Positions 8,143 through 41,502 of a DNA stretch of 64,000 nt are shown one piece after another. Where the stretch lies: NCBI GenBank assembly GCA_963675245.1, contig OY775910.1, positions 64,001 to 128,000 on the forward strand, given 5' to 3'. The DNA is from Acholeplasmataceae bacterium. Lineage in GTDB: Bacteria > Bacillota_I > Bacilli_A > Acholeplasmatales > Acholeplasmataceae. Made by a program: the position numbers and the translations under genes. The notes under the pieces were generated by a model. It searched no databases, was not told the origin of the DNA, and saw only the letters and a program-made list of their open reading frames with translations. The number at the start of each line of letters is the position of its first letter. The first letter of the stretch is position 1.

Positions 8143-11100
8143 TTATTCTATTCCCCCTTTTTTGATATATGTATAAAACACAAACATCGTAATTGCACCA
8201 ACGGTGAGTAGGCTTATCGTGCCTAAAGTAACATATAATCCAATTTGCCAAACAGGGGTTACTTTTTCAATGATTGTTGTTGAAGTTATACCATTTGTTA
8301 GATTACTATGTGCATACATATAAACGGTATTCTTAAATGCTTTACGCAATGCATTAAGGACATCGCCATTATCAAATGTGTTAATTACAGAAGTCACATG
8401 TCTACCAGCATCACCTCGATCAAAACAAAAATTATCAGTACCAGCTAATATACACTCGATATAGTGTTGTTGATATGTTCCGATGCAAGCATCAGAAATA
8501 ACAGCACCTTCAAAACCCCATTCCTCTCTTAAAATTGACGTATTTAACGCATAACTTTGACCACTATATGTCACGCCTTGACGCGTAAATGATTGCATAA
8601 CATAATGAGCATTCGCTTTGTCGTTTCTTAAAATACTTTCAAAACCTCTAAGAGAACCCTCTCTCATTGCTTGTTCCGTATAGAATATACTGACACCTTG
8701 TCGATATACTTCCCAATCATTATTTGCAAAATGCTTCGGACCAGCAATCACTCCTGTTGACTGCAGTGCACCTAGTTTTATTTCTTCAACAAGATAAACA
8801 ACAAAAGCATCTTCTGAATCATATTCTTGGTTGCGTCCACTAAAAGGTGTTCGTTTCAAGTTTCCTCCGCCTGTGAAGGTTGCAGATACACGACCAAACA
8901 GACATTCTTCACCCATCAATCGACCACGATTTTCTTGTAGTGTTTTATTCCAAGTTGCAGCTAAAACTTGTGTATATAAGTTGAAAGGTCTAATCAAATC
9001 CTCATCATTATCAACGGTTTGTTCTCCATAACCCAATACTGAAGGAAATGATTCTCCCAGACTATCATCGCCATCTCCACGATTAGCAAATGGTAAAGTG
9101 ATTGCTGCAACTGCCGGACTACTTCCATTATCTTGAAGTAATAACGATAATTCATTAATTGTAAGTTGATGTAGTAATGACTCCCAAAGAAGTTCATCAT
9201 TATATGCAACACCAACCATATCGATAAATGATAACCCACTATATAAACCTAAAGAGATATCGCTTGCTGACAATGATGACGTTGTAACATCATATGTATC
9301 TCCACTTAATGCTTTTAACATATCTTCGCCAACACATCTAACGTTTACAGCAGATATAGGAAATGTACCTGACCAATCTTGTCTTGTCAGATAAGTTACC
9401 GTATCCCCTGTTTCCCAATAATTATAATCACTGTCTTCAAACTGATTTCTAACACGAATACCGGTTGAATCAGTATAAGCATATGAAAATGTATCTGGGG
9501 CACTATTTAAAGCAGGAACACCTTGTGTAATTTTATAGACACTATCTTCATTTGCAGTGTATGTAGCACCATTTTGATCATAGAGACCAGTATATCCCTT
9601 AAACCCTAATATGTTATTCAAAGCTTCATGTGCACTATTACCAACAGAAAAGTAATAATCTCCACCACTAAGTATATAACTTTCAGTATTTGCATAATCA
9701 TAACTAGCGAGAAGATATCGCTCAACTGGGATAATAATATCAACTGATTCGTTAGGATTAAGTAGATCAGTCTTATCGTACGCGACGAGTTGAATAGAAG
9801 ATTTTTCAACCAAATAAGTCTTTTCATATTCACCATATGGTGTTTGAGCATAAACCAATACAGCTTTTTTACCAGATACTGAACCTGTATTTGTTACAGT
9901 TACTGTAACATCATAATAACCAGTTGATGAATCATAACTCACATGTTTAATTTCTTGTGTAAATGTTGTATATGACAACCCAAACCCAAATGGATAACAC
10001 ATTTCATCTGCATAATTCCATGAACCATTTGATTTAAATGCGCCAATTGCAGAATTCGCATCACCTTGTCTCATAATCACATCTTCATATCTGGTTTCGT
10101 AATATTTGTATCCAACATAAATATTTTCTTGTTGAACTGAAACCCATTTAACTGAAAAGTCCGAACCATCTTCATTATCAATAGCAGATATGACTTCATC
10201 AACGTTAGACCATGTTGGTGTATTATTAGCGGCATTTACGATTGCTGGCGAAGATAATGAATCGGAAGCCCAAGTGTCTGTTAATTGGCCAGATGGATTT
10301 ACAGAACCATTTAAAATGTTTGCTAGCCCTTTAAATCCTTCAGTACCTGGTGTACAAATCCAAAGAGCGGCGTCCACATCATAATCATTAAACCAATCTA
10401 ATTCCATGAAATAAGGTGAATTAATAATGACGATAACTTTAGATATGTGACCAGCATCTTTTTCATTTTTTAAAAGGTTAAATAAATCTCTTTCACGTGC
10501 ATGAAGTGCTAGTGATGAAATAACTTGATCATCAATATCAGTTTCAGATACAAACATATCCGTCCCCTCACCTGCTTCTCTGGCAAGCATAACTAGTGCA
10601 ACATCTCCTTGCCAAGTATCTTCATAACCATTTAGAAATGAAATGTCTTCTTCTGTTATACCAGAACCTTTCGTTCTCCTGTCAATGGTTTTGATAGATG
10701 AGTTTAAATAATGATTCCAAAGTGTTTCATTTATTGCAAAACCACCGTAGGTCAAACCTTCTTTTAAATCTATCATATATTCAGGATTATCTGTGTATAA
10801 AGAAGTACCTGCTGATACTGTATGATAAAGTGGATCAACAGAAGCATGTCCAAATGTTGTAATACGTTCGCTATTAGCATCTAACGGTAGGGCATTATGC
10901 TCATTTCTTAGAAGAACGAACCCCTCTTCACCTTCTTTAATGGTTTGTTCATAAGTATCTGAAATCAATACACGAAGATTGTCTGGTGTAAAATCACCAT
11001 AATTGCTTTTATAATAAATTGTATCTGAATTTTGATTACCTGTGTCAACAACTCTGCTTGTGGAAACGCCTAAATAAGCATTGATTTCTGTTGCATAATC

Positions 11101-11187
11101 TAAAGCAATAATTGTAATAAAAATTGAAATAACAAGAAAAACTGATAGCAATGTTGATATTCCGCGCCAAATAAATTTATGTCTCAT
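8143..11187 (-). CDS. GH3 beta-glycosidase, permuted domain order, N- and C-terminal TM anchors
   Basis: EGFVLLRNE, NPSGQLTDT, YPFGFGLSYTTF precede TIM-barrel motifs GRNQEYDSED, KHF, LREEWGFEGAVISD (nucleophile Asp present). Confidence 0.92.
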   Translation of the reverse strand: MRHKFIWRGISTLLSVFLVISIFITIIALDYATEINAYLGVSTSRVVDTGNQNSDTIYYKSNYGDFTPDNLRVLISDTYEQTIKEGEEGFVLLRNEHNALPLDANSERITTFGHASVDPLYHTVSAGTSLYTDNPEYMIDLKEGLTYGGFAINETLWNHYLNSSIKTIDRRTKGSGITEEDISFLNGYEDTWQGDVALVMLAREAGEGTDMFVSETDIDDQVISSLALHARERDLFNLLKNEKDAGHISKVIVIINSPYFMELDWFNDYDVDAALWICTPGTEGFKGLANILNGSVNPSGQLTDTWASDSLSSPAIVNAANNTPTWSNVDEVISAIDNEDGSDFSVKWVSVQQENIYVGYKYYETRYEDVIMRQGDANSAIGAFKSNGSWNYADEMCYPFGFGLSYTTFTQEIKHVSYDSSTGYYDVTVTVTNTGSVSGKKAVLVYAQTPYGEYEKTYLVEKSSIQLVAYDKTDLLNPNESVDIIIPVERYLLASYDYANTESYILSGGDYYFSVGNSAHEALNNILGFKGYTGLYDQNGATYTANEDSVYKITQGVPALNSAPDTFSYAYTDSTGIRVRNQFEDSDYNYWETGDTVTYLTRQDWSGTFPISAVNVRCVGEDMLKALSGDTYDVTTSSLSASDISLGLYSGLSFIDMVGVAYNDELLWESLLHQLTINELSLLLQDNGSSPAVAAITLPFANRGDGDDSLGESFPSVLGYGEQTVDNDEDLIRPFNLYTQVLAATWNKTLQENRGRLMGEECLFGRVSATFTGGGNLKRTPFSGRNQEYDSEDAFVVYLVEEIKLGALQSTGVIAGPKHFANNDWEVYRQGVSIFYTEQAMREGSLRGFESILRNDKANAHYVMQSFTRQGVTYSGQSYALNTSILREEWGFEGAVISDACIGTYQQHYIECILAGTDNFCFDRGDAGRHVTSVINTFDNGDVLNALRKAFKNTVYMYAHSNLTNGITSTTIIEKVTPVWQIGLYVTLGTISLLTVGAITMFVFYTYIKKGGIE

Positions 11188-18609: not shown

Positions 18610-18785
18610 ATAATTTAAAATAATATAAACATTTTATTGTTTCAATGATTCTGATGTAAGAAAGGTAGTTCTTCTTTTTTTGAAAAAGATATTTTATTTA
18701 CTTTGATAAATATATTTGATATAATTAAGGTAATAACACGATGATTTACTCATAAATAAAATTACTCTTAAGAGGGAGGCGTAAT

Positions 18786-21700
18786 ATGAGGAAAATAATA
18801 ATTATTTTTATTTTTTTTGTGCTTTTGTTTAGTAATTCGTTAATGGTTTTTGCAGCGTTCACAGAGGGAGTTAACGCTGATTATTACCCTGATTTCATAT
18901 CTTGGGAAGAAGAACAAGCTGCTGCAGATAAATTTAATATTGAACTTGCTTCCGAGAGCTTTGTTTTACTTAAAAATGAGAATCGTGCACTACCACTCAC
19001 ACCAGACGAAACTAACATTAGTTTATTTGGTACGGGTAGTTATTATTGGTCATCACCTGGAATTCGAAGTGTAAGACCTGCTTCTGTGTATGACAGTCTT
19101 TCATCAGTAAATCTTAGTGTAAATCCAACAATTGCGAGATTTTATCAAATGAACTGGACTAATTTAGAAGAACCTTCTCTTGATAATCTTGAAGAAATGA
19201 CATATTCTTATGATATGTATGATGATGCTGCAGTCATAACTATTTGGCGATCGGTTCCAGAATGGAATGAAGTTTCATTATATGAAACACCAGGACATAC
19301 AGATTTGTTGGACCACACCTATTCTTTAACAGATAATGAAAAATCAGTTATTAATGGCTTAACAACAAAATTTGATAAGGTTATTGTGCTTATCAGTAGT
19401 GGAAACCCTATGGAATTAGGATGGCTTGAAGATCACGATGGTGTGGATGCTATTTTATGGATTGGTTATACAGGGTTAAATGGTAGAATGGCAGTTGGTC
19501 CAATGCTCGTAGGTGAAACAAATCCATCTGGTAAAACTGCTGATATTTATCCAGCAAAGTTTTCACAAGATCCAACTTGGGCAAATTTCAAAGGTAATAT
19601 CCAAGATCAACTTATCGAAGTTGACGGTGTATTATATACAAATTATATTGGTCCAGGTGATCCTGCTAATGTGCTTGCACCTGCAGAAATTTCTGGTTTG
19701 TCTAATAGCTCAGCTGAATATTTGACTTATTCACGAGTAACAGATATTTCAGGTAATACAGTAACTGTAGATGGACCAAACGATAGTGCAAGATATTTTA
19801 CATCATTAGACTATGAAGAAGGTATTTATGTTGGTTACCGTTGGTATGAAACTGCTGCACAAGAAGGATTCTTTAGTGCTGATTCACATGGGTTCACAAA
19901 TGCAGAAAGGCTGGCATCACTTGATGAAGCAGATCCAAAATATATAACACCTGATTTGTATTATAATCGATTAGATGGCGTAATTTATCCTTTTGGTTAT
20001 GGCTTAAGCTATACTACTTTTGATGTTGATATTCAAAACGTCGTACATGATGGTAGTTTATTCTTGAATGGAGATACATTGAATACCGCATATAACCAGG
20101 AAATTACTTTAAATATTTCAATTACAAATACTGGGAATTTCGCAGGTAAAAAAATAGTGGAAATCTATTACACTGCACCTTATATTACTGGCGAAATTGA
20201 AAAAGCTAGTATAAATTTAATAAATTTTGCAAAATCTGATTATTTATATCCAGGTGAATCACAAGTGATACCTGTCACCATTCGCATTCAAGATATGGCA
20301 TCATTTGATGATGTTGATGCAAATGCCGATGGTCACCAAGGTTACGAACTTGATCCTGGCACATATACTTTATCTGTTAGAGATAATTCACACGACACGT
20401 TAGATTCAATCGATGCAGTAATCGCAGGTGATATCGTTCATTACGATATTGATGCTGATACTGGTGCATCAATTGAACTTAGATTTACCCCAGAAACTGG
20501 AGATACAACTTGGGATGGTTCCAGGTCAGATTTAACATATTACAACACAAGACGTACCGCATTCATTAGTCCAAATTCACAAATGACTTACTTAACAAGA
20601 GCTGATTTTGATGGTACAATGCCAAAAGCACCAACCCCAGCTGATTTAGCATGGTCAGATGAAGCATTAATGATCTTGTTATCTCAAATTTATTATTCAT
20701 CGTTTAATGATTTACCTACAGATCCCTGGTATATTGATGAATCCGAGTTTAATGAAGGTGGATTGTACGAAGATTGGACACAAGTAAGTGAGGATGATGT
20801 TTCAGAGAGAGTTAATGGATTAGTCCCCATTCAATTATATGATATGTCTGGAGTGCCACTTGATGATCCACAATGGATCGAATTCATGAATCAATTGACA
20901 TGGGATGAAATAAGGACACTCGTTAGTAATGGTCAATATCATACTGAAGCAATAGATACTATAGGCAAACCGAGAACTAATGAGGTTGAAAATTTTAATG
21001 CTATAGGACACGGTACATTCTGGGTAAGCCAAGTCAATATAGCTTCCACATGGAATATCGATTTAGCTTACAGACACGGGCGATATTTGGGTAATGAAGC
21101 CATGTTACAAGAAATTAATGGTTTATATGGACCGAATTTAAATATACACCGCAGCCCAGCTTCTAATCTCAATTATAGTACCTATTCACAAGATGGCATA
21201 CTTGCAGGATTAATCGGACAAAATGTTGTAAAGGGAGCAACCGATAAGGGAATAGTAGTTTATATTGAAGATGCATTAATGGATGCTCAAAATACAAACC
21301 ATTATACAGTCACTACGTTTATTTCTGAGCAAGCACTGCGTGAAATGTACTTAAAACCATTTGAAATGGCCATTAAGAATGGAAATGCAAATGCATTAAT
21401 GAGTAGTTCTAATAAAATTGGTATTGTTTCATCGCAATCAAACTACAACTTACATGTTGGTTTATTAAGAGATGAATTTGGTTTTGATGCATTTTCAATA
21501 ACAAGTTATTATAGTTGGTCAACAACCCCTTCTGCAACTGGTGATATGTGTGCAAGAGTATTTCAACTACCATTAGGTCACTATACCGATACATTTGGTA
21601 GACATATTGAAGGTGAATGGGATGATGTTAACCAAAATGTTATCGTCACATTTAATGGAAATGTTACGAGTGGTACAAGATATATTAGTGATACTTCAGA

Positions 21701-23216
21701 AGGTATTCAATCAACAACTATAACAAGTTATAATCCAGTCCTCATTAACTTTGTCAATAATAACGATTATGTGTTAACTGGTGGTAATGTAGAACGTGAC
21801 TATGAATACACCACAACTCCAGGTCCTTCAGCAGCATTCAGTGATGCAACTAACATGCTAGATGGAACAACATTATATGAAGAGGGAGACAACTTAGCAA
21901 GTTATACACAATGGGTAGCTGTACGTAATCTAGCTCAGTCGATACTTTATGAATACGCCAATTCAACATCGATGGAAAATGGTATAGATTTTAGCGATTT
22001 AGTCCCACGTGAACTTACAGCTATTCAATATTCAAGGATATATAATAATCAAATCAGTATCGCATTACCTAATCTAGACAATGCGGTGTATACATTAGCA
22101 AGTATCAATTCAACACTACCTGAGGGATTGAGTTTATCAACAGATGGTCAGATTACTGGCACAACCTCAACAGTAGGTACATTCTCATTTGTAGTGACAG
22201 TTATCGTTGATGATTATATCACCAGAAATATCCGTCATACATTAACCATAACACCAGCATTTTCATTCGTTAATATGAATGATTTGGAAGAAAATGTTGC
22301 TTTAACAGATGGTAGTATCATCAGTCATGCATTTATCATTGGTTCTTCTATCATTACTGGTGATATTGGTGATCCTTATTTAGGGCCATTTCTTATATCT
22401 ACTACACTTCAATCTATTGAATATAGCGTGTTTGAAGGTTCACTTCCAAATGGACTGACATTAGATACTTCAGGTAACATTACAGGAACACCTACTACTT
22501 CAGGTTCATATAATGTAACAGTACTTGCCCACATGAGTGGATATTCAACCAGTTGGAGCACATCAATTTTTCAAGACATTTTGATACCAACTACTTTTGA
22601 AGTTGCTGCTGGTATTCCACTTCCAACATATGATGTCACATTCGCAGGTAACTTCACTGGTGCTTCTGACGAAGTTGTTGCCGTAGTTCAAGATACACCA
22701 ATCGCAGCATTAGCAGCACCTTATCGTCCAGGTGCAATCTTCTTAGGATGGTTCACAGACGCAGCTGCTACAACAGCAGTAGACTTCAGTGCAAATGTTG
22801 CAGCTGATGTCACGTATTATGCTGGTTGGGTTGATGTTGTTGGCTTGGTTGAAGACCTTGCAGCACTTGACTCAGCACTTGATGCAGATGTTGCTACAAT
22901 CAATGCAGCTATCGATGCAGTCGATGCAGCAATTACAGCATTACAAACAACATTAGAAGCAGCGATTGCAGCTGGTGATGATGCTGTTGCAGCAGATATC
23001 GCTACTGATATTGCAGCTTTACAAGCATCACTTGATTCACTCAATAGTTCACTTGATGATGAAACAGGACGTATTGATGATATCGAAACACAATTAGCAG
23101 AAACTGGTTGTGGATCTGAAATCACTCTTTCAAGTACAATTGTTTTCGCGACAATGTTATTATTAACGGTTGCATTTGCATTTGTTATTACAAGAAATAA
23201 GAAGCAATTAAATTAA
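18786..23216 (+). CDS. Surface GH3-fold protein lacking catalytic motifs; 2 putative Ig repeats, InlB B-repeat, coiled coil, GCG-TM anchor
   Basis: Signal peptide; ESFVLLKNE, NPSGKT, YPFGYGLSYTTF present; KHF replaced by EDA and (S/T)D nucleophile by TS; LP.GL.L...G.ITGT x2; GWF..YYAGW; C-terminal TM. Confidence 0.88.
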   Translation: MRKIIIIFIFFVLLFSNSLMVFAAFTEGVNADYYPDFISWEEEQAAADKFNIELASESFVLLKNENRALPLTPDETNISLFGTGSYYWSSPGIRSVRPASVYDSLSSVNLSVNPTIARFYQMNWTNLEEPSLDNLEEMTYSYDMYDDAAVITIWRSVPEWNEVSLYETPGHTDLLDHTYSLTDNEKSVINGLTTKFDKVIVLISSGNPMELGWLEDHDGVDAILWIGYTGLNGRMAVGPMLVGETNPSGKTADIYPAKFSQDPTWANFKGNIQDQLIEVDGVLYTNYIGPGDPANVLAPAEISGLSNSSAEYLTYSRVTDISGNTVTVDGPNDSARYFTSLDYEEGIYVGYRWYETAAQEGFFSADSHGFTNAERLASLDEADPKYITPDLYYNRLDGVIYPFGYGLSYTTFDVDIQNVVHDGSLFLNGDTLNTAYNQEITLNISITNTGNFAGKKIVEIYYTAPYITGEIEKASINLINFAKSDYLYPGESQVIPVTIRIQDMASFDDVDANADGHQGYELDPGTYTLSVRDNSHDTLDSIDAVIAGDIVHYDIDADTGASIELRFTPETGDTTWDGSRSDLTYYNTRRTAFISPNSQMTYLTRADFDGTMPKAPTPADLAWSDEALMILLSQIYYSSFNDLPTDPWYIDESEFNEGGLYEDWTQVSEDDVSERVNGLVPIQLYDMSGVPLDDPQWIEFMNQLTWDEIRTLVSNGQYHTEAIDTIGKPRTNEVENFNAIGHGTFWVSQVNIASTWNIDLAYRHGRYLGNEAMLQEINGLYGPNLNIHRSPASNLNYSTYSQDGILAGLIGQNVVKGATDKGIVVYIEDALMDAQNTNHYTVTTFISEQALREMYLKPFEMAIKNGNANALMSSSNKIGIVSSQSNYNLHVGLLRDEFGFDAFSITSYYSWSTTPSATGDMCARVFQLPLGHYTDTFGRHIEGEWDDVNQNVIVTFNGNVTSGTRYISDTSEGIQSTTITSYNPVLINFVNNNDYVLTGGNVERDYEYTTTPGPSAAFSDATNMLDGTTLYEEGDNLASYTQWVAVRNLAQSILYEYANSTSMENGIDFSDLVPRELTAIQYSRIYNNQISIALPNLDNAVYTLASINSTLPEGLSLSTDGQITGTTSTVGTFSFVVTVIVDDYITRNIRHTLTITPAFSFVNMNDLEENVALTDGSIISHAFIIGSSIITGDIGDPYLGPFLISTTLQSIEYSVFEGSLPNGLTLDTSGNITGTPTTSGSYNVTVLAHMSGYSTSWSTSIFQDILIPTTFEVAAGIPLPTYDVTFAGNFTGASDEVVAVVQDTPIAALAAPYRPGAIFLGWFTDAAATTAVDFSANVAADVTYYAGWVDVVGLVEDLAALDSALDADVATINAAIDAVDAAITALQTTLEAAIAAGDDAVAADIATDIAALQASLDSLNSSLDDETGRIDDIETQLAETGCGSEITLSSTIVFATMLLLTVAFAFVITRNKKQLN
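22602..23213 (+). repeat. 612-bp inverted repeat, copy A
   Basis: Base-by-base comparison with the reverse complement of 35055-35666: 7 mismatches, first 425 bp identical. Confidence 0.97.
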
Positions 23217-23258: not shown

Positions 23259-23313
23259 AAAAAACCTTCCTTCTATAAGGACAATTCTTTCTTACAGTAT
23301 AGGAAGGTTTTTT
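23259..23313. terminator. Bidirectional terminator
   Basis: AAAAAACCTTCCT...AGGAAGGTTTTTT between convergent genes. Confidence 0.75.
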
Positions 23314-26482: not shown

Positions 26483-27562
26483 TTATGCATTTTGAGCAAT
26501 AATCAATTCGCCTTCTTTGACGATTCGATCTCGTTCTTGAATCGCTGCAGATGCTAATTTAATATCTTCAGCAAGTCTTTCTTCAATTACTTGAATTTCG
26601 CTAGGGTCTGCTTGTTCTTCTATTTTCTTATCAAGTAATTTTTTACATGAAATAACTTTAATAATTTTCGATTCACATGTTGATCTAATCGATAACATAT
26701 TTTTTTCAGCAAGTTTAACATTACTTAATTTTTTCATCTTATTTGCTTCTTCTAAAGCCTTATCATATGCTTTTTGAGCAGCTGCAATTTTACCAGCATC
26801 AGACGTTTGTATCGCTGCATCTAATGCAGTTTTCAAATGTGCTGCATGTGCTTCTTTATGTTCCGCAACTTTGTGAACATCAGGAAAAATAACACGGAAG
26901 ATAAAGTAGAAGATGAGCATCGCAACGCCACCTTGGATGACCATGTTAATTAAATCCATAGCCTCTCTTGGTATACCTATGAATGCTTGATTCCATTCTG
27001 CAAGGTTACCAATAATAATCCAAATGACTAAGTTAATGCCTAACCAACCGATTAAATACCACATGGCTTGATACCAAGGATTCCCCTTTGATCGATACGT
27101 AAGATTTCTTTGTAGTGGGAAGTTAATGACTTGTGCTAAGAAAGTTGCAATTAACCATGAATAGAAATATCCTAATCCACCACCGATAATTGGCACACCA
27201 TTATCTCTTAAGACTGGGTAACCAAAGATAATAAATTTAAGATCAACACCACCAACCGTATAAATTACACCTGGCCAATCAATTGGTGTTGCTGCAAGTT
27301 CAGCACCAAAGAAATGGGGGATAAATAATAGTAAAATCCATTGGAAGATTGTCACTAAATTACTAAACAAGTAAAAGAGTGCGAATGTATATAAGAATTT
27401 AGACAATTTAGGTTTCTTATCTGAGAAGTTAGACCAAACACCTAACCACCAACGCCAAATTTTTTGTAGAAACGCTAACACATTATTGTCACTGTATGGT
27501 GAAAGTTGACTTTCAATTTCATTTTGAGTCAACAATTTGTAATTTAATCCTGTTTCGCTCAT
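26483..27562 (-). CDS. GtrA-like membrane protein with a C-terminal coiled coil
   Basis: F.LFSNLVT..Q, AQVINFPLQRN.T pattern; ~4 TM; Ala/Lys/Glu-rich helical tail; overlaps the GH3 stop by 4 bp. Confidence 0.65.
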   Translation of the reverse strand: MSETGLNYKLLTQNEIESQLSPYSDNNVLAFLQKIWRWWLGVWSNFSDKKPKLSKFLYTFALFYLFSNLVTIFQWILLLFIPHFFGAELAATPIDWPGVIYTVGGVDLKFIIFGYPVLRDNGVPIIGGGLGYFYSWLIATFLAQVINFPLQRNLTYRSKGNPWYQAMWYLIGWLGINLVIWIIIGNLAEWNQAFIGIPREAMDLINMVIQGGVAMLIFYFIFRVIFPDVHKVAEHKEAHAAHLKTALDAAIQTSDAGKIAAAQKAYDKALEEANKMKKLSNVKLAEKNMLSIRSTCESKIIKVISCKKLLDKKIEEQADPSEIQVIEERLAEDIKLASAAIQERDRIVKEGELIIAQNA

Positions 27563-29997
27563 TGTACATTCTCTCTTTCCATTTTGCGTATTTTTTTTGC
27601 TTCTCTACCTGCCTTGAAGAAGTGACGTAAGCCTTTGAAGAAATGTCCGTTAAACATTTCAATCATTGCATGTAATTGTTTCCATGAAATCATACCACCA
27701 GACATTCTTGAAATACCTCTAAGCGGTTGTTGTAACATACCCATTGCGAGTACAGCTGCAACATCTCTCTTGCCAATAAATTTAAGAAACCAAATCAAGA
27801 ATCTGATTGCACCCGCAAAGAAACGACCAAACCAACCTCTCGCCCAGCGTAATTCTTCAATTGTTGTATTGACATGAACATAAATCCTATTCTTTTTATA
27901 GAACTCATAATTTGCCTGTGGAATGTCTCTTCCAATAAGTGCTTTAAAATCTTCATCTGATACATTCTGAACATCTGCATTTTTGTAGCTTGCGATATCA
28001 TTTTTAGGGAATTTCTTAGTTGTTCCTTCTTTTTCAATTTGACCTGATAATTCGATATCAACTGAAGAACTACCAATGTAAATATCATAAGCACCTTCTT
28101 CAACTTCAAATTGATTAGTTACCGTATTGAAATATCTAAATGTCAAGTCATCAAACTTAATGTTAACAGTTTTTGATTCACCCGGTGCTAATTCAACTTT
28201 TGAGAATCCTTTCAATTCCTTTGTAGGACGATAAACTTTTGATTTTTTAAGTCCTACATATAATTGAGAGATTTCTTTACCAGCTACGTTACCAGTATTT
28301 TTTACTTTGAAGGATACACCTTGTTCTTCAACGACTAAATCACTATAAGCAAACGTTGTATAACTTAGACCATATCCAAATGGGTATCTTACTTTGACAC
28401 CTGCGGTATCAAAATAACGATAGCCAACATATAAACCTTCTCTATATTCAGCAGTTAATTCCATCCCTGGATAATTAAACGCTGTTGAATAATCTGTGTA
28501 TTGATAGGCATATGATTCAGCTAACTTACCTGAAGGATTAACCTTACCTGTAACAACGTTTAAGACAGCTTGTGCAGCTGCTTGTCCACCTAAGAATCCA
28601 TGTACTAAGGCATTCACGTGTTTAACGAAATCCATTTCAATAACAGATCCACAAGCAAGTTTCGCTACAATTGGTTTGTTTAATTTAGCAAGTTCTTCAA
28701 CAAGTACTCTTTGATTTAAAGGTAATTCAAGATTTGGTTTATCCATACCTTCTAATTCAGTCACTTCATCTAAACCTAAATATAAAAGAATAACATCTGC
28801 TTTTTGAGCAAGTTTAATCGCTTTTTTAATTAATCCATTTGATTTTTTACCATATCGCTTAAATCCAGGTTCATAACCTACTGAACTTAAACCAGATAAT
28901 GATAGATAATCTAATGCTGAATCCAATTTTGTTGGATTAACAATTGAACTACCAGCACCTTGATATCTTGGGTTTTTAGCAAAATCCCCGATGACTGCCA
29001 CTTTAGTACCTTCTGCTAATGGTAAAATGTTATCTTCATTTTTAAGAAGAACAACAGATTCTTCAGCTGCTTTTTCAGCAAAATTATGATGTTCATCTTG
29101 ATCAAAAGGAATAATTTCTTTTTCAAATACTTTAGATGTGTCAAAGACGAGCGTTAAATAACGATCAACGGCTTCATCCAAATATTTTTCGTCAAGTTTT
29201 CCGGATTCGATGGCTCTAACGATGTCTCTATTTGTTTCTTCACCAGTTGTTGGCATTTCAAGTTCTGCACCAGCCTTCAATGCAGCAACACGATCATTAT
29301 TGCCGCCCCAGTCAGAAACTATAACGCCTTCGAATCCCCAAAGATCTCTCAATATTTCTCTTAATAAATGTTCATTTTCATTTGCGTAAACGCCATTTAA
29401 TAAATTATATGACGACATAATTGTCTTCGTATTTCCTTCTTTAACAGCAATTTCAAATGCTGGTAAATAAATTTCACGAAGTGTACGTTCATCCATGACA
29501 GAGTCGCTGACAAGTCTACGATGTTCTTGGTTGTTTGCAGCAAAATGCTTTACACAAGCAGAAATACCATTAGATTGAATACCTTTGATATATGACGCTG
29601 CCATTTTACCTGCTAAAATTGGATCTTCACTGAAATATTCAAAGTTACGCCCACAACGTGGATTACGTTTGATATTGGTTCCAGGTCCAAGAACAACATT
29701 GACTCTTTGCGATACAGCTTCATATCCTAAACGTTTCCCCAATTCTTCTCCTAGTGCAGGATTCCATGAATTCGCCATAGAAGCAGCTGTAGGAAAACAT
29801 GTCGCATTTAAACTTTCATTGAGACCTAAGTGATCAGCAGCTACCGCTTGTTTCCTCATACCATGAGGTCCATCAGCAAGGAACATTGACGGAATATCAT
29901 GTTGTTTTAAATCTCTTGTTTGCCAAAAATCCTTACCGGACATTAGCGACGCTTTTTCTTTGAGCGTCATCGAATCTATTAGTTTTTTATATTTCAT
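27559..29997 (-). CDS. GH3 beta-glucosidase, canonical domain order, no signal peptide
   Basis: ADGPHG.RK, GRNFEYFSEDP, CVKHFA, WGFEGVIVSDWG, YPFGYGLSYT, Fn3-like ELKGFSKV. Confidence 0.95.
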   Translation of the reverse strand: MKYKKLIDSMTLKEKASLMSGKDFWQTRDLKQHDIPSMFLADGPHGMRKQAVAADHLGLNESLNATCFPTAASMANSWNPALGEELGKRLGYEAVSQRVNVVLGPGTNIKRNPRCGRNFEYFSEDPILAGKMAASYIKGIQSNGISACVKHFAANNQEHRRLVSDSVMDERTLREIYLPAFEIAVKEGNTKTIMSSYNLLNGVYANENEHLLREILRDLWGFEGVIVSDWGGNNDRVAALKAGAELEMPTTGEETNRDIVRAIESGKLDEKYLDEAVDRYLTLVFDTSKVFEKEIIPFDQDEHHNFAEKAAEESVVLLKNEDNILPLAEGTKVAVIGDFAKNPRYQGAGSSIVNPTKLDSALDYLSLSGLSSVGYEPGFKRYGKKSNGLIKKAIKLAQKADVILLYLGLDEVTELEGMDKPNLELPLNQRVLVEELAKLNKPIVAKLACGSVIEMDFVKHVNALVHGFLGGQAAAQAVLNVVTGKVNPSGKLAESYAYQYTDYSTAFNYPGMELTAEYREGLYVGYRYFDTAGVKVRYPFGYGLSYTTFAYSDLVVEEQGVSFKVKNTGNVAGKEISQLYVGLKKSKVYRPTKELKGFSKVELAPGESKTVNIKFDDLTFRYFNTVTNQFEVEEGAYDIYIGSSSVDIELSGQIEKEGTTKKFPKNDIASYKNADVQNVSDEDFKALIGRDIPQANYEFYKKNRIYVHVNTTIEELRWARGWFGRFFAGAIRFLIWFLKFIGKRDVAAVLAMGMLQQPLRGISRMSGGMISWKQLHAMIEMFNGHFFKGLRHFFKAGREAKKIRKMERENVQ

Positions 29998-30111: not shown

Positions 30112-32952
30112 CTATCTTTTTCTAAATATGAAGAATCCCCAAGTACCAAATCCTGCTACTGACACTGCGTCTAAGATGACTAAACCAAGCATCCATACTG
30201 GCATTCTATAGCCTAATACTTCCGTATTCATTGCATTAGAATTAGTGACCATATAGAGGATATTTTTAGCACCGTTTGCCAATACAGACATATCACTAAC
30301 TGATGATTTAGAGGCGTTAAATTCTTGATTTAACGTTTGTAAATTAATATCTCCCCCAGCATATGCCATTTGTTTAGAATCCATATGACTACCTGTGTTG
30401 AAGTCACTAATAACAGCTCCTTGGAATCCCCATTCCTCTCTTAAGACTTCGGTTAATAGACGGTAATCACCACCTGCCCATTTAGTACCAATTCTGTTAA
30501 ATGAAGACATCATACCAGTAGTTTGTCCAACTTTAACTGTATATTCAAATGGTTTTAAGTAAATTTCTCTTAATGTTTGTTCATCAAGCCAAGTAGCAAC
30601 ACCTGAACGTGATGTTTCTTGTTCGTTCACCGCAAAGTGCTTAACGAATGTATATACACCCTTACTCATTGCACCTTGAATTTCATGTGATGCCATAATA
30701 CCTGTTAAAAATGGATCTTCACTAAAATATTCACCGGTACGTCCACCAAAAGGTGAGCGATGTAAATTTACACCAGGTGAATACCAACCGGAATAAGGAA
30801 TGCCATCACCATCTTCATTACCAATTAAACCTTCATCACCAACAGCTTCTCCAAACTTATATAATAATTCAACATTGAATGTTGCTGCCATGATTGGTTC
30901 ACATCCATAGTGTGACGTACCATAAACAGTTCCTGTAGATAGGAAGTTTACAAAACCAGCAGGTCCATCTGCATCTGTAGTTTGAGGTTTACCAATGTTT
31001 AATAACGCAATCGTTTGGAAAGCCCCTTTATTAAATAGGTCTATTAAATCATCTCCTGAGAGTTGACTTATTAGTTCTTCCCATTGAGGATCATCAAAAT
31101 CAGCATCAACTAAATCTTGTAGTGTAAGTGTTCCTTCTTCGTTTAACAATGGAAATTCAGTGTAAGTATTTGGGTTCAATGAATCTACTGAATTAATACC
31201 AGTATTTGTCGCAGCACTAATAATTTTTTCGGCTGCTGTACGCATTGATGGGAATGTACCATCCCAATCATTTCTGGATAATACAATTGTTAATTCGTCA
31301 TCAGCATCATCAAAACGATTAACTACCTCATTATTTGTCGTTGTATCATTTTCAAATAAAATATCAGCAGCAACATTCATCGTGAAATTCTCATATTCGT
31401 CATGTGCATTAATACCTAAGCGGAATGTATAAGTTCCGGCATCTAATTCGTAACCTTCATTGCTATTTGAATTAGCATCATTATAGTCATAAGACGCAAA
31501 ACTATATGGATCAATTTCAATAGTTACTGTTTCAGACTCTGATGGAGCAATATCACCAGTTTTAGCAAATCCAACCAATACAACATGTGATTTTTCGATT
31601 TCACCAGCATTGTACGGTGTTGTAACATAAATCATTACAGTATCTTTACCAGCTACAGTACCCGTGTTTGTTACTTCTACATCGATTTCAAATGTTTCAT
31701 TAGCAGTAATTGAATCTCCTTCAAGTGCATTTGAATTTGTAATTTCTTGTGTAAATGTCGTATAACTTAAACCATATCCAAACGGATAAACGACATGATC
31801 ATCGTACCAAATTTCTCCATCGGTTTCGCCACGTGTTTCATAATAACGATATCCCATGTAAATACCTTCTTCATAATCAACGAAAGCATATAAATAACTT
31901 GATATTTGATTGGCTATCGATGTATATCTTTCACCTCGTACTTCTAAATTGTTACCAAAGTTTTGCCATGTAGGATCTTCTTTATAATCACGAACCCAAG
32001 TGTCAACAGTTCTTCCAGATGGATTGACTTCGCCAGTTAGAATACGTCCTAATGACATGATACCTGTATCACCAGGGGCTCCAATCCATAGTGCTGCATC
32101 AATATTAGCATTGTATGCATAGTGAGTCGTATCATCCAAGAAACCTAATTCAATTTGTGTACTACTATTAATAACGATGATTACTTTATCAAATGCTGCA
32201 GTAACTTCTGCAATTAGATCTGTTTCATTTTGATCAAGTTGTAAATAATGATCATCTGCATTTCTTGCACCTTCAACCGGATCACCATTGTTATCTGACA
32301 TTGTTCTAGGTAGATCAAATCCTTCGCCACCTATACGTGAGATAACAATAATTGCTGCATCATCATAATTGGAGAAAGTACCTCTTAATGTAGCATCATA
32401 ACTACTCCATGGTGTTTCACCTGTCCATAATGAAATGATACCATTATTGTCCATTTGTGGATTTGAAGGTCTTCCTGAACCAGATGCATCATCATCTTCA
32501 TAAAAACTAACTAATGCTGGATTATATGAAATACCAACAGCATCTAAACTCTCAAATAATGTATTCACATTCGCACCACTACCAGCACCAGATCCAGAAC
32601 CACCATATACAAGGTCAACAGAATTTTTACCAAATACACTAACGCTTGAACCTGTTGCAATTGGTAAAGCATTTGAATCATTCTTTAAAAGGACTATTCC
32701 TTCTTCAAATAATTCCTCATTAACTGCATTACCATTTAATCTTGCTTCTTCTTTTGTGTTAAATTCAGTCTCAAATACTTGAGTTGTACCGCTTGCAGTA
32801 ATTGCTGCACCTTTACCTAGGACATTACTAATTATGTCGTAAAACATAGTAGAGGCTAAAATGGTTAAAACTGTTAATAAAACAATCGTAATTGACGTCG
32901 TAATCAACCACACTATAGATTGTCTTGTTTTAAAAAATTTATTTTTTGACAT
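30112..32952 (-). CDS. GH3 beta-glycosidase, permuted order, N- and C-terminal TM
   Basis: EGIVLLKN, SRIGGEG, DADGPAG, GRTGEYFSED, VKHFA, WGFQGAVISDF. Confidence 0.94.
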   Translation of the reverse strand: MSKNKFFKTRQSIVWLITTSITIVLLTVLTILASTMFYDIISNVLGKGAAITASGTTQVFETEFNTKEEARLNGNAVNEELFEEGIVLLKNDSNALPIATGSSVSVFGKNSVDLVYGGSGSGAGSGANVNTLFESLDAVGISYNPALVSFYEDDDASGSGRPSNPQMDNNGIISLWTGETPWSSYDATLRGTFSNYDDAAIIVISRIGGEGFDLPRTMSDNNGDPVEGARNADDHYLQLDQNETDLIAEVTAAFDKVIIVINSSTQIELGFLDDTTHYAYNANIDAALWIGAPGDTGIMSLGRILTGEVNPSGRTVDTWVRDYKEDPTWQNFGNNLEVRGERYTSIANQISSYLYAFVDYEEGIYMGYRYYETRGETDGEIWYDDHVVYPFGYGLSYTTFTQEITNSNALEGDSITANETFEIDVEVTNTGTVAGKDTVMIYVTTPYNAGEIEKSHVVLVGFAKTGDIAPSESETVTIEIDPYSFASYDYNDANSNSNEGYELDAGTYTFRLGINAHDEYENFTMNVAADILFENDTTTNNEVVNRFDDADDELTIVLSRNDWDGTFPSMRTAAEKIISAATNTGINSVDSLNPNTYTEFPLLNEEGTLTLQDLVDADFDDPQWEELISQLSGDDLIDLFNKGAFQTIALLNIGKPQTTDADGPAGFVNFLSTGTVYGTSHYGCEPIMAATFNVELLYKFGEAVGDEGLIGNEDGDGIPYSGWYSPGVNLHRSPFGGRTGEYFSEDPFLTGIMASHEIQGAMSKGVYTFVKHFAVNEQETSRSGVATWLDEQTLREIYLKPFEYTVKVGQTTGMMSSFNRIGTKWAGGDYRLLTEVLREEWGFQGAVISDFNTGSHMDSKQMAYAGGDINLQTLNQEFNASKSSVSDMSVLANGAKNILYMVTNSNAMNTEVLGYRMPVWMLGLVILDAVSVAGFGTWGFFIFRKR

Positions 32953-35048: not shown

Positions 35049-38000
35049 TTACTTATTAAATTGTTTCTTATTTCTTGTAATAACAAATGCAAATGCAACT
35101 GTTAATAATAACATTGTCGCGAAAACAATTGTACTTGAAATGGTGATTTCAGATCCACAACCAGTTTCTGCTAATTGTGTTTCGATATCATCAATACGTC
35201 CTGTTTCATCATCAAGTGAACTATTGAGTGTATCAAGTGACGCTTGTAAAGCTGCAATATCAGTAGCGATATCTGCTGCAACAGCATCATCACCAGCTGC
35301 AATCGCTGCTTCTAATGTTGTTTGTAATGCTGTAATTGCTGCATCGACTGCATCGATAGCTGCATTGATTGTAGCAACATCTGCATCAAGTGCTGAGTCA
35401 AGTGCTGCAAGGTCTTCAACCAAGCCAACAACATCAACCCAACCAGCATAATACGTGACATCAGCTGCAACATTTGCACTGAAGTCTACTGCTGTTGTAG
35501 CAGCTGCGTCTGTGAACCATCCTAAGAAGATTGCACCTGGACGATAAGGTGCTGCTAATGCTGCGATTGGTGTATCTTGAACTACGGCAACAACTTCGTC
35601 AGAAGCACCAGTGAAGTTACCTGCGAATGTGACATCATATGTTGGAAGTGGAATACCAGCAGCAACAACTAATGTTACATCTGTTGGAACGTCAATTGTT
35701 CCAGACATCCATCCACCCCATAATACCCAACTTGCATTAACATTAATTGTTACATCATATGATCCAGGCATTGTTGGTGTTCCAGTGATGTTACCAGCTG
35801 CATCGAGAACTAAACCAGCAGGTAGCGCACCACCAATAACACTATATGTAAGATTAGATAATGGTGCAGTCATTGTACCCCAGTTTGTTTGAACAGGATA
35901 AGATGTGACACCAAATGTAATTGATCCATCTGTTACAGCAACATTCTCTTCAAGTGCATCAAGATTTGCTAATGTGAATGCAGAAGCAACTTCAAGTGAG
36001 AAGTCGACTGAACCAACATTTACCCAGTAATTTCCAGAATAACTAACTCTAAATGAGAATGAACCATTTACTGTAGGTGTACCAGAAATTTGGCCTGTAG
36101 CTTCATTTAATGATAAACCAGCAGGTAAAGATCCAGATGTTATTGAAGCACTAATACCCATGCCTTGTACATTTTCAGGTATTACATTTGCACTAAATGA
36201 TGAGAATTGAGTTGCATCTGCTAAAGCACCATCAACTGTACCTAATTGCAAGAAATTACCCATTAAGTTACTGTTAACTGATGTGTAAAGGACATTTTTA
36301 GCAGCAGTACGAACTGCCCACCATTGTGAGTACGAAGGAACGGCTTCAGTTTCACCAACAGGTGTATAAACAGGTGCACCTTCAGTTTCATCCCACTGTG
36401 CATAGTTATCACTATAATTACGATTACCAAGAGGAATATCATTACCCATTGGCCACATTTCATTTAAGTTCATGTATGAATTAGATCCGCCACCAACAAA
36501 GTAGTCGGTCACAACATGACCTTCAAATCCCCATTCATTACGTAATACTTCGACTAGTAATGCATAGTTGGCACTAGCATCAACTGCACCAATTCTATTG
36601 AATGAAGACATAACGGCATATGAACCACCTTCTTGAACTGCAAGTTGGAATGGTTTCAAATAAACTTCTCTCATAGCTTGTTCATCAAGATAAGTCGAAA
36701 TACCCATTCTTTCAGTTTCTTGATCGTTAATTGCAAAGTGTTTAATATACGTATATAGACCTTTAGCTTGTGCACCTCTGACAGTAGCAGCAGCTACTTT
36801 ACCACCTAAGAAACCATCTTCTGAATAGTATTCAAAGTTTCTACCAGCAAATGAACTTCGGTGAGTATTCATAGCAGGTCCATACCAACCACTAATACCA
36901 AGCCATAATGCTTCGTTACCAACCATTTGACCCATTTGTTCAGCTATTTCTAAATTCCATGAAGAAGCGATTGTTACTTCTGATGCCCAATAGAATCCAC
37001 TACCAAATCCAGCAGGACCATCAGCATCTGTTGCTCTTTCTTTACCAATGGAAGCAACTGCAGATGTAGAATAACTACCTCTACTTACAAACACTGCTAA
37101 TTCTTCATATGATAATTGGTTTAAGAAAGCATCCCAAGCAGGATCATCTTTAGGCACATTAATCATATCAGATAGTTGTGTAGCTACAAGTCCATCTACA
37201 CGTGCATCAACTTCAGCTTGAGAAGCTTGAGTGTAACCAGCTACATCAGTTGCATCTTTATACCAAGGTGCTGTTTCATCTTCTAGATCTTCAAGAACGA
37301 ATACATGTGCAAGTTGATCAGCTAAAGTTGAATCAGCAGCAATAGTTAAGTCAGCTACTGAAGGAGCAACAGGGAAAGTAGCAGCAAAATCAGCTCTTGA
37401 CATAATTGTCATAGTCAAATCTGCAGTACCATCATTATCAATATCAGGAAGTGAATTGAAATAATCATCATTCGTAAATCTGTTTTCTACTGTATCACCT
37501 GTAACTCTATCGTTATCGTAGTTAATACCAGATACTATAGAATAAGGAATAGTAGCAACTACTTCATGTGAATTTCTCTTTATTTGAATGTCATAACTAC
37601 CAGCATCTAATTCATACCCAGTATGTCCGTTATCATTTGCATCATTATAATCATAGGATGCCATGTCTTGAACGTATAATTCAATGACAACATCTTGAGA
37701 TTGTCCAGGTTGTAATAAACCTGTTTTAGCAAAGCCACCAAGAACAGTTGAAGATTTTTCAATCTCACCATTGATGTATGGTGCGTCATAATATAGTTCA
37801 ACTACATCTTTACCAGCAACATCGCCAGTATTTGTAACAGTAACAGTCACTGAAATCATGCCATCTGATGTTAATGCAGATCCAGAAACTGGACTTGCAC
37901 TTGCAACTGACCATGAGAAAGTTGTGTAACTTAACCCATATCCAAATGGATATACGACATTGTCATCATACCATGAACCGCCTTCAATTTCACCACGTGT

Positions 38001-40779: not shown

Positions 40780-40780
40780 T

Positions 40781-41491: not shown

Positions 41492-41502
41492 GTTAAGTCC
41501 TT

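What the first reader, a model, noticed from the sequence alone, without database searches (positions are those of the whole stretch)
20970..21520. 1476-aa GH3 is a pseudo-enzyme: every sugar-pocket motif is replaced while the ORF stays intact
Seen, by comparison with the paralogue at 35049: DADGPAG becomes NEVENFNA, GRNFEYYSED becomes NLNYSTYSQD, IKHFA becomes IEDAL (21267-21272), and the nucleophile VTDY becomes ITSY (Ser at 21504-21506). Structural motifs (VLLKNE, NPSG, YPFGYGLSY, LRE.YLKPFE) and a 4.4-kb open frame with a strong GGAGG RBS are kept. Established: the KH pair and the (S/T)D Asp are essential in GH3. Inference: selective loss of catalytic residues points to neofunctionalisation (lectin, receptor, scaffold or new chemistry) rather than decay.
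Basis: partly seen in the sequence, partly recalled or inferred. Interest (0 to 1): 0.75.

Follow-up and report, generated by a model that had tools for sequence, protein, structure and literature searches.

The report
Dead surface GH3 glycosidase kept intact
One of nine GH3 sugar-cleaving enzymes in this small wall-less bacterium has had its whole sugar pocket rewritten while the rest of the 1476-residue surface protein stays under selection, so it is a preserved pseudo-enzyme and not a decaying gene.

Summary
ORF 18786..23216 (+) encodes a 1476-aa, signal-peptide-bearing, C-terminally membrane-anchored GH3 with permuted domain order. Seven of the eight conserved subsite -1 residues are replaced: D735E, R795L, K828E, H829D, R839H, F875S and the nucleophile D907S. 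Only the acid/base Glu (E159) is kept.

It is the only one of 250 proteins examined, and of 9 GH3 genes in its own genome, that lacks these residues. Its true orthologues in two related genomes share its insertions but keep every motif, so the loss is specific to this lineage.

It is not recent decay:
- The pocket codons carry at least 30 nucleotide changes over 18 codons.
- Clade-invariant columns of the barrel outside the pocket changed at 3 of 42, against 18 of 24 inside it. That gradient matches active long-branch homologues.
- A neutral 4.4-kb ORF loses its frame by about 0.05 substitutions per base (0 of 400 simulations).

The lineage evolves about 3.7 times faster than its sister.

I read it as a non-catalytic surface protein. 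The function is unproven, and the old glycone site is gone, so it is not a chi-lectin-type binder. Its 3' 612 nt form an inverted repeat with the active paralogue's 3' end.

This is a new variant of a known kind, seen in one genome, with no expression data.

The parts
18697..18725 (+). Promoter-like site (TTTACT-17-TATAAT with TG), in the 220-nt intergenic region upstream
   Evidence: It is the best-scoring + strand site, but the number of sites in the region is no more than in shuffles (28 against 28.9), so this is weak evidence.
18774..18779 (+). Ribosome-binding site GGGAGG, 6 nt before the ATG
   Evidence: read directly from the sequence.
18786..23216 (+). Pseudo-GH3 gene (P0001), 1476 codons plus stop
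18786..18854 (+). Signal peptide (residues 1-23, ending ...MVFA|AF); no lipobox Cys
   Evidence: Read from the sequence. This is inferred; no predictor was run.
18963..19586 (+). GH3 (alpha/beta)6 sandwich domain (Pfam Glyco_hydro_3_C, residues 60-267), placed first, which makes the topology permuted
   Evidence: 74.3 bits. The model and Foldseek agree.
19260..19262 (+). E159, the retained acid/base Glu; its neighbours are changed (G157V, F160W)
   Evidence: It aligns with the Glu of ...SEG.D... in 2x40 and corresponds to Glu-143 of GlyA1.
20154..20390 (+). Fn3-like domain (residues 457-535)
   Evidence: 25.3 bits; cut-off 25.
20886..21575 (+). GH3 (alpha/beta)8 barrel (residues 701-930; Pfam Glyco_hydro_3 match 739-903) with the rewritten subsite -1
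20988..20996 (+). E735-N736-F737, replacing the invariant D-G-P (sugar-binding Asp)
21165..21182 (+). N794-L795-N-Y797-S798-T799, replacing G-R-N-F-E-Y (Arg of subsite -1)
21267..21302 (+). E828-D829 replacing K-H; then A830, D833, A834, N836 and H839 replacing L, N, D, E and R
21408..21410 (+). S875, replacing the invariant aromatic residue (Tyr-677 position of GlyA1)
21504..21506 (+). S907, replacing the catalytic nucleophile Asp
   Evidence: The column is the one mutated in PDB 2x42 relative to 2x40.
22401..22553 (+). He_PIG Ig-like domain (best of 2 Pfam stretches, residues 1206-1256)
22629..22823 (+). Flg_new (Listeria-Bacteroides repeat) domain, residues 1282-1346
22824..23108 (+). Ala/Asp-rich helical stalk (residues about 1347-1441), a probable coiled coil
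   Evidence: Sequence pattern only. This is inferred; the oligomer test could not be run.
23130..23192 (+). C-terminal transmembrane helix (residues 1449-1469), followed by the basic tail RNKKQLN
   Evidence: Read from the sequence; inferred.
22602..23213 (+). 612-nt tract 98.9% identical to the 3' end of P0002. The first 425 nt (22602-23026) are identical, and the boundary at 22602 is sharp.
35055..35666 (-). Partner copy of the 612-nt tract at the 3' end of P0002. The two copies are inverted repeats flanking an 11.8-kb segment.
23260..23313 (+). Hairpin flanked by an A-run and a T-run between the convergent genes; terminator-like in both directions
   Evidence: MFE -20.3 kcal/mol, z = -3.59. 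The consensus scan missed it because of its long loop.
35049..39050 (-). P0002, the active-looking permuted GH3 paralogue (1333 aa) with all motifs intact. It sits in the syntenic slot that the P0001-type gene occupies in G038.

Best explanation
P0001 is a lineage-specific pseudo-enzyme. It descends from a surface-anchored, domain-permuted GH3 exo-glycosidase. It lost the catalytic nucleophile and all polar glycone-binding residues of subsite -1 early after the split from its same-genus sister lineage. Since then it has been kept by purifying selection as a folded, exported, membrane-tethered protein. Shown: the residue losses, their uniqueness, their confinement to the pocket, the retained constraint elsewhere, the retained fold (predicted), and the faster overall rate. 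Inferred: it cannot hydrolyse glycosides by the GH3 mechanism. Inferred: it works as a non-catalytic surface protein, with the GH3 head held on Ig-like domains and a helical stalk above the membrane of a wall-less cell. The head would bind polymeric glycan through surfaces other than the old glycone pocket, or through the remodelled, more acidic pocket. Alternatively it serves as a structural or partner subunit for the active GH3 enzymes of the adjacent locus. The presence of P0002, an active-looking paralogue with the same anchor in the syntenic slot, would have made its catalysis dispensable.
For: Residue losses:
- D735E, R795L, K828E, H829D, R839H, F875S and D907S are changed; E159 is kept.
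- These positions are the subsite -1 set named for the permuted GH3 GlyA1, where D709A abolishes activity (passages of PMC5104943).

Uniqueness:
- 0 of 120 homologues, 0 of 129 further 50%-identity representatives and 0 of 8 other GH3 ORFs in the genome lack GR, KH or the nucleophile.

Orthology:
- P0001 is sister to the same-genus P0003/P0004. SH-aLRT is 98 with the pocket columns and 91 without them.
- It shares clade-specific insertions with orthologues that keep all motifs.

Selectivity:
- At columns invariant in 28 clade members, P0001 changed 21 of 66 in the barrel and 9 of 117 elsewhere (Fisher p = 4.6e-5).
- Inside five pocket windows it changed 18 of 24. In the barrel outside them it changed 3 of 42 (invariant), 17 of 57, 24 of 46 and 29 of 41 by falling conservation class. 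Active long-branch homologues P0029 and P0020 show the same gradient.

Age of the loss:
- The 18 changed pocket codons need at least 30 nucleotide changes, and 10 of the 18 need two or more.

Frame:
- Neutral simulation keeps a stop-free ORF in 60 of 400 runs at 0.01, 8 of 400 at 0.02 and 0 of 400 at 0.05 or more substitutions per base.

Fold:
- The AF2 model of residues 24-1075 has pLDDT 89.5 and pTM 0.92.
- The best Foldseek matches are the two solved permuted GH3 enzymes (5WVP/5WUG and 5K6L-O, E about 1e-47 to 1e-50, about 975 aligned columns).

Expression signals:
- An RBS, a promoter-like site and a terminator hairpin are present.
Against: - There is no expression, activity or binding data. 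No RNA run holds the stretch.
- The whole protein evolves 3.6-3.8 times faster than its sister, and 1.7-3.8 times faster even outside the barrel. It also changed 9 of 117 invariant non-barrel columns, where 24 of the 28 clade members changed at most 5 over their whole length. Constraint is therefore relaxed, not normal.
- dS is saturated in every pair (1.2-1.7), so no reliable dN/dS for the terminal branch exists.
- The pocket windows were drawn after the changes had been seen. The independent set is the 8 conserved residues taken from the paper.
- It is a singleton: no second lineage carries this state, so long-term persistence is inferred from one branch.
- With all polar subsite -1 residues gone, there is no positive evidence that it binds sugar at all.
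- Selection against truncation could act only through the C-terminal anchor, or through avoidance of misfolded export. That would keep the frame without a useful head function.
Confidence: 0.6

Rival explanations
1. The gene is on its way to becoming a pseudogene. Catalysis became redundant once P0002 was present, the gene is drifting, and the open frame is luck or very recent history.
For: The rate is accelerated in all domains (core 229-244 unique changes against 63-67 in the sister). 9 of 117 invariant non-barrel columns are changed. It is a singleton among 250 proteins. An active paralogue occupies the syntenic slot. No RNA evidence exists.
Against: The pocket codons are diverged to about the neutral level, with at least 30 nt changes in 18 codons. 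Invariant barrel columns outside the pocket changed only 3 of 42, and the change rate rises with column variability just as in active homologues. A neutral ORF of this length is stop-free in 0 of 400 simulations at 0.05 or more substitutions per base. No frameshift, stop or truncation is present.
Confidence: 0.1
2. The pocket has taken on a new function. The rewritten pocket is adaptive: a new ligand- or metal-binding site, or a new catalytic centre built from the new acidic residues (E735, E828, D829, D833) and H839, together with the retained E159.
For: Replacement is near saturation (18 of 24 invariant pocket-window columns) and often needs 2-3 nt per codon, which fits either long neutrality or directional change. 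All three cationic side chains (R795, K828, R839) are removed and three acidic ones appear at or next to former basic or neutral positions. E159 is kept. The pocket loops are still modelled with fair confidence (blocks 74-92).
Against: Nothing distinguishes this from drift of sites released from constraint. The pocket windows change at the same rate as the most variable columns (67-78% against 64-71%), which is what neutrality predicts. No second lineage shows conservation of the new residues.
Confidence: 0.12
3. P0001 is a partner subunit of the active paralogue. P0001 and P0002 would co-assemble through their identical Flg_new-plus-stalk module, and the dead head would modulate or target the live one.
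For: The 3' 612 nt of the two genes are 98.9% identical, with 425 nt identical (residues 1273-1414: Flg_new and two thirds of the stalk). The rest of the genes is too diverged for blastn, apart from one 84-nt match at 76%. Pseudo-enzymes often act on their active paralogues (general knowledge, recalled).
Against: The identity can be a by-product of gene conversion between inverted repeats, with no selection behind it. Whether the stalk oligomerises was not tested. No co-expression data exist, and the two genes have different upstream regulators (MerR-type against a GHKL kinase with a LytTR regulator).
Confidence: 0.1

Closest known systems
Permuted-topology GH3 beta-glycosidases (GlyA1 from a rumen metagenome, PDB 5K6L-O; Paenibacillus barengoltzii beta-glucosidase, PDB 5WUG/5WVP)
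   Same: The domain order is sandwich, then FnIII, then barrel. They are the best structural matches over about 975 columns. The acid/base Glu sits in the first domain.
   Different: Those enzymes are active, and their subsite -1 is Asp-532, Arg-597, Lys-630, His-631, Arg-641, Tyr-677, Asp-709 and Trp-710. P0001 has replaced seven of the eight conserved positions. P0001 also carries clade-specific insertions, two He_PIG domains, a Flg_new domain, a stalk and a membrane anchor.
Its own orthologues P0003 (G001) and the 1467-aa protein of G038, and its paralogue P0002
   Same: They share the same architecture, signal peptide and C-terminal anchor. P0003 and the G038 protein share the P0001-specific insertions. 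P0002 shares the last 612 nt.
   Different: All of them keep DG, GR, KH, the second Arg, the aromatic residue and the nucleophile.
Pseudoglycosidases such as GH18 chitinase-like lectins (YKL-39/40), GH1-like Klotho repeats and the GH33-like CyRPA
   Same: Each is a glycosidase fold retained after loss of catalysis, with a non-catalytic role (review PMC7828330, passages seen).
   Different: Those are eukaryotic. The chi-lectins lose the catalytic acid but keep sugar binding, whereas P0001 has also lost the sugar-binding residues. No GH3-derived example is listed in that review. My searches found none, but they cover only the held library.
Thermotoga neapolitana Bgl3B (PDB 2x40/2x41; mutant 2x42)
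   Same: It is the best sequence match of the barrel among solved structures (E 4.5e-29 to 6.1e-29). It gives the residue-by-residue equivalences.
   Different: It has canonical domain order and is an active enzyme. The residue mutated in 2x42 aligns with S907. The name D242A is recalled from memory and was not read here.

Membership tests
Glycoside hydrolase family 3 (by descent) | Significant sequence similarity to both GH3 domains | tested here: met
   Pfam Glyco_hydro_3_C scores 74.3 bits (cut-off 31) and Glyco_hydro_3 scores 50.1 bits (cut-off 27). The PDB GH3 hits reach E 4.5e-29.
Glycoside hydrolase family 3 (by descent) | GH3 two-domain fold with the pocket at the domain interface | tested here: met
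   The AF2 model has pLDDT 89.5 and pTM 0.92. The top Foldseek hits are GH3 enzymes. The geometry of the interface pocket was not inspected because no coordinates were available.
GH3 as an active retaining glycosidase | Catalytic nucleophile Asp after beta-strand 7 of the barrel | tested here: not met
   P0001 has S907, where 249 of 249 other homologues have Asp. It aligns with the residue mutated in 2x42.
GH3 as an active retaining glycosidase | Lys-His pair, two Arg and an Asp that hold the glycone hydroxyls | tested here: not met
   K828E, H829D, R795L, R839H and D735E. The set is defined in PMC5104943.
GH3 as an active retaining glycosidase | Acid/base Glu in the sandwich domain | tested here: met
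   E159 is conserved. 117 of 120 homologues have Glu in that column, and the other 3 lack the region.
GH3 as an active retaining glycosidase | Measured hydrolysis of glycosides | not testable with these tools
   This needs recombinant protein and assays.
Permuted-topology GH3 subfamily (GlyA1-like) | Order (alpha/beta)6 sandwich, then FnIII, then (alpha/beta)8 barrel | tested here: met
   The Pfam coordinates are 60-267, 457-535 and 739-903. The best structural matches are 5WUG/5WVP and 5K6L-O.
Pseudo-enzyme (pseudoglycosidase) | Homologue of an enzyme family that lacks essential catalytic residues | tested here: met
Pseudo-enzyme (pseudoglycosidase) | Maintained by selection, as opposed to a decaying pseudogene | tested here: met
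   The conservation gradient outside the pocket is retained. The 1476-codon frame is intact where 0 of 400 neutral simulations stay stop-free at 0.05 or more substitutions per base. The pocket codons are at neutral-level divergence. The evidence is indirect, because dS is saturated.
Pseudo-enzyme (pseudoglycosidase) | Expressed, and has a non-catalytic function | not testable with these tools
   No RNA run holds the stretch. No functional data exist.
Chi-lectin-type pseudoglycosidase (keeps the ancestral sugar site) | Sugar-binding residues of the old active site retained | tested here: not met
   All polar subsite -1 residues except E159 are replaced.

The most novel reading that the evidence does not exclude
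The rewritten pocket is not debris but a new site, and the gene is half of a switch. The pocket has lost all three basic residues and gained Glu/Asp/His, and it could now recognise a cationic ligand or a metal. The 425-nt perfect inverted repeats shared with the active paralogue would let the 11.8-kb glycan-use cassette between them flip. The cassette would then be read behind either the live enzyme gene (two-component control) or the dead one (MerR-type control). The flipped order P0001-594-946-812 reproduces the gene order seen in G038.
Probability: 0.1. Interest if true: 0.75.

Novelty: new variant of a known kind. Interest (0 to 1): 0.45.

Why it matters
Annotation pipelines will call this protein a beta-glucosidase, yet it almost certainly is not one. 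It gives a clean natural example of how a glycosidase becomes a pseudo-enzyme. The pocket drifts at the neutral rate while the scaffold, export signal and anchor stay constrained, in a genome that holds an active paralogue with the same anchor. I found no GH3-derived pseudo-enzyme in the held literature. If the head still binds a glycan or a partner, it would be a new kind of surface glycan-handling component in wall-less Bacillota. It would also be a natural scaffold for engineered binders. The case rests on one genome and on sequence analysis only.

Tried and rejected
- RNA evidence: no RNA holder was listed for 19500-22500. This says nothing about expression.
- Closer strain: run X4 (share 0.31) looked like a diverged relative. 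Its contigs are low-depth pieces identical to the window, so it gave no closer orthologue. X1 covers 18500-22631 with 0 differences and is probably the source sample, so it is not independent.
- dN/dS: Nei-Gojobori gave dS of 1.2-1.7 or more in all informative pairs. The ratios (0.22-0.30 for P0001 pairs against 0.18 for G001-G038) are therefore only indicative.
- Sorting signal: no NCBIfam model matched the C-terminal 78 residues, including the GCGSE motif before the helix. All NCBIfam equivalog scores for the enzyme part lie far below their cut-offs.
- Frameshift scrambling as the source of the motif changes: rejected. The codon-by-codon comparison shows in-frame substitutions.
- Conversion from another paralogue as the source: rejected. 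None of the 8 other GH3 ORFs has these motifs.
- Stalk self-association: complex prediction was queue-full and then unavailable. It was not tested.
- Pocket geometry, metal site and electrostatics: model coordinates are not exposed to scripts, so these were not done.
- Literature: searches found no natural GH3 pseudo-enzyme and nothing on Acholeplasma GH3. They cover only the held library.
- Earlier scan notes on this genome concern a tRNA-Phe cassette array and do not bear on this gene.
Full report
WHAT IS THERE

The ORF at 18786..23216 (+) is open for 1476 codons. A GGGAGG lies 6 nt upstream of the ATG. Pfam gives the domain order as follows:
- Glyco_hydro_3_C, residues 60-267.
- Fn3-like, residues 457-535.
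- Glyco_hydro_3 barrel, residues 739-903.
- He_PIG, two stretches.
- Flg_new, residues 1282-1346.

Read from the sequence, there is an N-terminal signal peptide, an Ala/Asp-rich helical stretch and a C-terminal hydrophobic helix with a basic tail. The GH3 domains are in the permuted order described for GlyA1 (PMC5104943, passages).

An AlphaFold2 model of residues 24-1075, built with a 41-row alignment, has mean pLDDT 89.5 and pTM 0.92. Its best Foldseek matches are the two solved permuted GH3 enzymes, 5WVP/5WUG and 5K6L-O. They score E 7.5e-50 to 1.3e-46 over about 975 columns.

The genome is a single 1,626,300-base contig at 33.9% G+C. Source names of homologues point to Acholeplasmataceae.

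The window holds four permuted GH3 genes (8143..11187, 18786..23216, 30112..32952, 35049..39050) and one canonical GH3 gene (27559..29997). The genome holds nine GH3 ORFs in all.

21267-21272 is E828-D829 in place of K-H, and 21504-21506 is S907 in place of the nucleophile Asp.

I took the subsite -1 residues from the structure paper of a permuted GH3: Asp-532, Arg-597, Lys-630, His-631, Arg-641, Tyr-677, nucleophile Asp-709, stacking Trp-710 and acid/base Glu-143. The D709A mutant is inactive. I mapped them by alignment and by conserved spacing.

P0001 has D735E, R795L, K828E, H829D, R839H, F875S and D907S. It keeps only E159. The position after the nucleophile is variable in the clade.

Neighbouring clade-invariant residues are also changed:
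- G736N and P737F.
- G794N, F797Y, E798S and Y799T.
- L830A, N833D, D834A and E836N.
- V905I.
- G157V and F160W, next to E159.

All three cationic side chains of the pocket are gone.

IT IS UNIQUE

A search of about 5.8 billion protein clusters found 286 proteins at E <= 1e-20. The best 120 were listed. P0001's own cluster has one member, and the next best protein is 57% identical.

In an alignment of P0001 with these 120, all 120 keep G-R, K-H and the nucleophile Asp. 117 of 120 keep the acid/base Glu, and the other 3 lack that region.

An exhaustive phmmer search of 1.84 billion 50%-identity representatives with the barrel listed 150 proteins. The 129 that were new all keep R, K-H and the nucleophile. 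Six of them differ only in having S, A or T before the Arg, one of which also has Pro at the second-Arg column and another Ser for the Gly of D-G.

Of the nine GH3 ORFs in the genome, only P0001 lacks these residues.

THE LOSS IS LINEAGE-SPECIFIC

A search of 41 genomes (G000 plus 40 relatives) found two clear orthologues:
- G001, same genus: 58% identity in the searched region, 1459 aa.
- G038: 55% identity, 1467 aa.

Both share the large insertions that set P0001 apart from P0002, and both keep every motif.

In a 45-row tree, P0001 sits inside a 16-row clade (SH-aLRT 100) as sister to P0003/P0004 (98). Its end branch is 0.58, against 0.14 + 0.02 for the sister. With the pocket windows removed and a mixture model, the placement holds (91). 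The branch is 0.98 against 0.22.

DECAY OR RETENTION?

Rate. Tajima-type counts against the sister P0003, with four different outgroups, gave these numbers of unique changes:
- Core: 229-244 in P0001 against 63-67 in P0003, a 3.6- to 3.8-fold difference.
- Barrel: 75-80 against 7-12, a 6- to 11-fold difference.
- Other domains: 1.7- to 3.8-fold.

Constraint is therefore relaxed everywhere, and most of all in the barrel.

Placement of the changes. At 183 columns invariant in the 28 other clade members, P0001 changed 30. The others changed 0-15 when tested the same way. Of the 30, 21 fall among the 66 invariant barrel columns and 9 among the 117 elsewhere (Fisher p = 4.6e-5).

I then split the barrel into five pocket windows and the rest. 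The windows are 731-739, 792-800, 826-840, 873-877 and 904-909. They are centred on the paper's residues but were drawn after I had seen the changes. The results:
- In the pocket windows, 18 of 24 invariant columns and 7 of 9 nearly invariant columns are changed.
- In the rest of the barrel, the changed fraction rises with column variability: 3 of 42, 17 of 57, 24 of 46 and 29 of 41.
- That gradient is the same as in active homologues of similar branch length. P0029 shows 3 of 45, 16 of 60, 19 of 38 and 35 of 43, and P0020 is similar.
- The sandwich, linker and post-barrel parts show the same gradient.

The pocket therefore changes at the rate of the freest columns, while the scaffold is still filtered.

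Age of the loss. The 18 changed pocket codons need at least 30 nucleotide substitutions. Ten of them need two or more, and two need all three. That is about the level of the saturated synonymous divergence (pS 0.61 against G001). The loss therefore dates from early on this branch.

Frame. In a neutral simulation on the gene itself, the frame stayed free of stops in 60 of 400 runs at 0.01 substitutions per base, 8 of 400 at 0.02, and 0 of 400 at 0.05 and above. Indels were not modelled and would only lower these numbers.

Together these results exclude neutral drift of the whole gene for the time the pocket has been free. They do not show what the retained part is used for.

LIMITS

- dS is saturated, so there is no proper branch dN/dS.
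- There is no closer relative. The only other holder of the sequence carried identical low-depth pieces.
- No RNA run was listed.
- The test of stalk self-association could not be run.

CONTEXT

P0001 lies at the edge of a glycan-use region and faces P0002. Between them lie a DUF4097/HAAS/PadR module, a GT2, a 359-aa protein, the canonical GH3, a 946-aa permuted GH3 and a 594-aa Flg_new protein, all on the minus strand.

In G038 the order is GHKL kinase, 1467-aa orthologue, Flg_new protein, 961-aa GH3, 809-aa GH3. In this genome the same order holds, with P0002 in the orthologue's place.

P0002 has no close orthologue in the 40 relatives. Its best match, at 48% identity, is the P0001-type gene of G001. 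It falls in another clade, on a long branch.

The last 612 nt of P0001 and P0002 are 98.9% identical. 425 nt (22602-23026) are identical, the upstream boundary is sharp, and apart from one 84-nt match at 76% identity blastn aligned nothing else between the two genes. The genes are convergent, so these tracts are inverted repeats around an 11.8-kb segment. Flipping that segment would put 594-946-812 behind P0001, which is the G038 order. I did not test whether it flips.

HOW IT MOST LIKELY WORKS

Shown: this is a folded GH3 scaffold without a nucleophile or a glycone site, exported and anchored like its active relatives, and still under selection.

Inferred: it is catalytically dead as a GH3 and serves a non-catalytic role at the cell surface. 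I put about 0.6 on this reading as a whole. Within it, binding of polymeric glycan or of a partner enzyme is more likely than an inert spacer.

It should not be likened to chi-lectins, which keep their sugar site (review PMC7828330, passages).

Rivals:
- Slow decay, about 0.1.
- An adaptive new pocket, about 0.12.
- A subunit partnering P0002 through the shared stalk, about 0.1.

COMPARISON AND NOVELTY

By descent and fold, P0001 belongs to GH3 and to its permuted subfamily. By the defining catalytic features it fails (nucleophile, Lys-His, Arg, Asp).

Pseudoglycosidases are known from GH18, GH1-like and GH33-like folds. I found no GH3-derived one in the held library.

This is a new variant of a known kind. 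It is well supported as a pseudo-enzyme, but it is a singleton with no experimental or expression data, so the interest is moderate.

Noticed in passing
window 22602-23213 (+) and 35055-35666 (-): The 3' ends of the dead and the live GH3 genes form 612-nt inverted repeats, with 425 nt identical and 7 mismatches in the last 190 nt. They flank an 11.8-kb block of glycan-use genes. Inverting the block would put it behind P0001, reproducing the gene order of G038.
   Followed up: partly
G000:C1:778671-783092 (+), outside the window: Another 1474-aa permuted GH3 paralogue has S-G in place of D-G and N-H in place of K-H. It keeps the Arg, the second Arg and the nucleophile (T-D-W). It may have a changed specificity or be partly disabled.
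   Followed up: no
window 47472-53210 (-): A 1912-aa ORF has no Pfam family at E <= 1e-4.
   Followed up: no
window 26483-27562 (-); L013 13129-14214 (-): A 359-aa protein with no Pfam match lies between the GT2 gene and the canonical GH3 gene. A 361-aa protein, also without a Pfam match, lies at the same place in G001. The two were not aligned with each other.
   Followed up: no
window 23101-23115 (residues 1440-1444 of P0001; the same in P0002): A G-C-G-S-E motif sits just before the C-terminal membrane helix. G-C-G also appears in the consensus of the 41-row alignment, while G001 and G038 lack it. No NCBIfam sorting-signal model matches.
   Followed up: partly
window 39448-41506 (-): A GHKL-type kinase and a LytTR response regulator lie directly upstream of P0002. 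The GHKL-type kinase gene lies beside the GH3 cluster in G038 and G001 as well (the regulator was not checked there), so this pair is a likely regulator of the GH3 cluster.
   Followed up: partly
window 32992-34776 (-): A 594-aa secreted protein made of five Flg_new repeats plus a C-terminal part without a Pfam match follows the large GH3 gene in all three genomes. It is a candidate glycan-binding partner.
   Followed up: no
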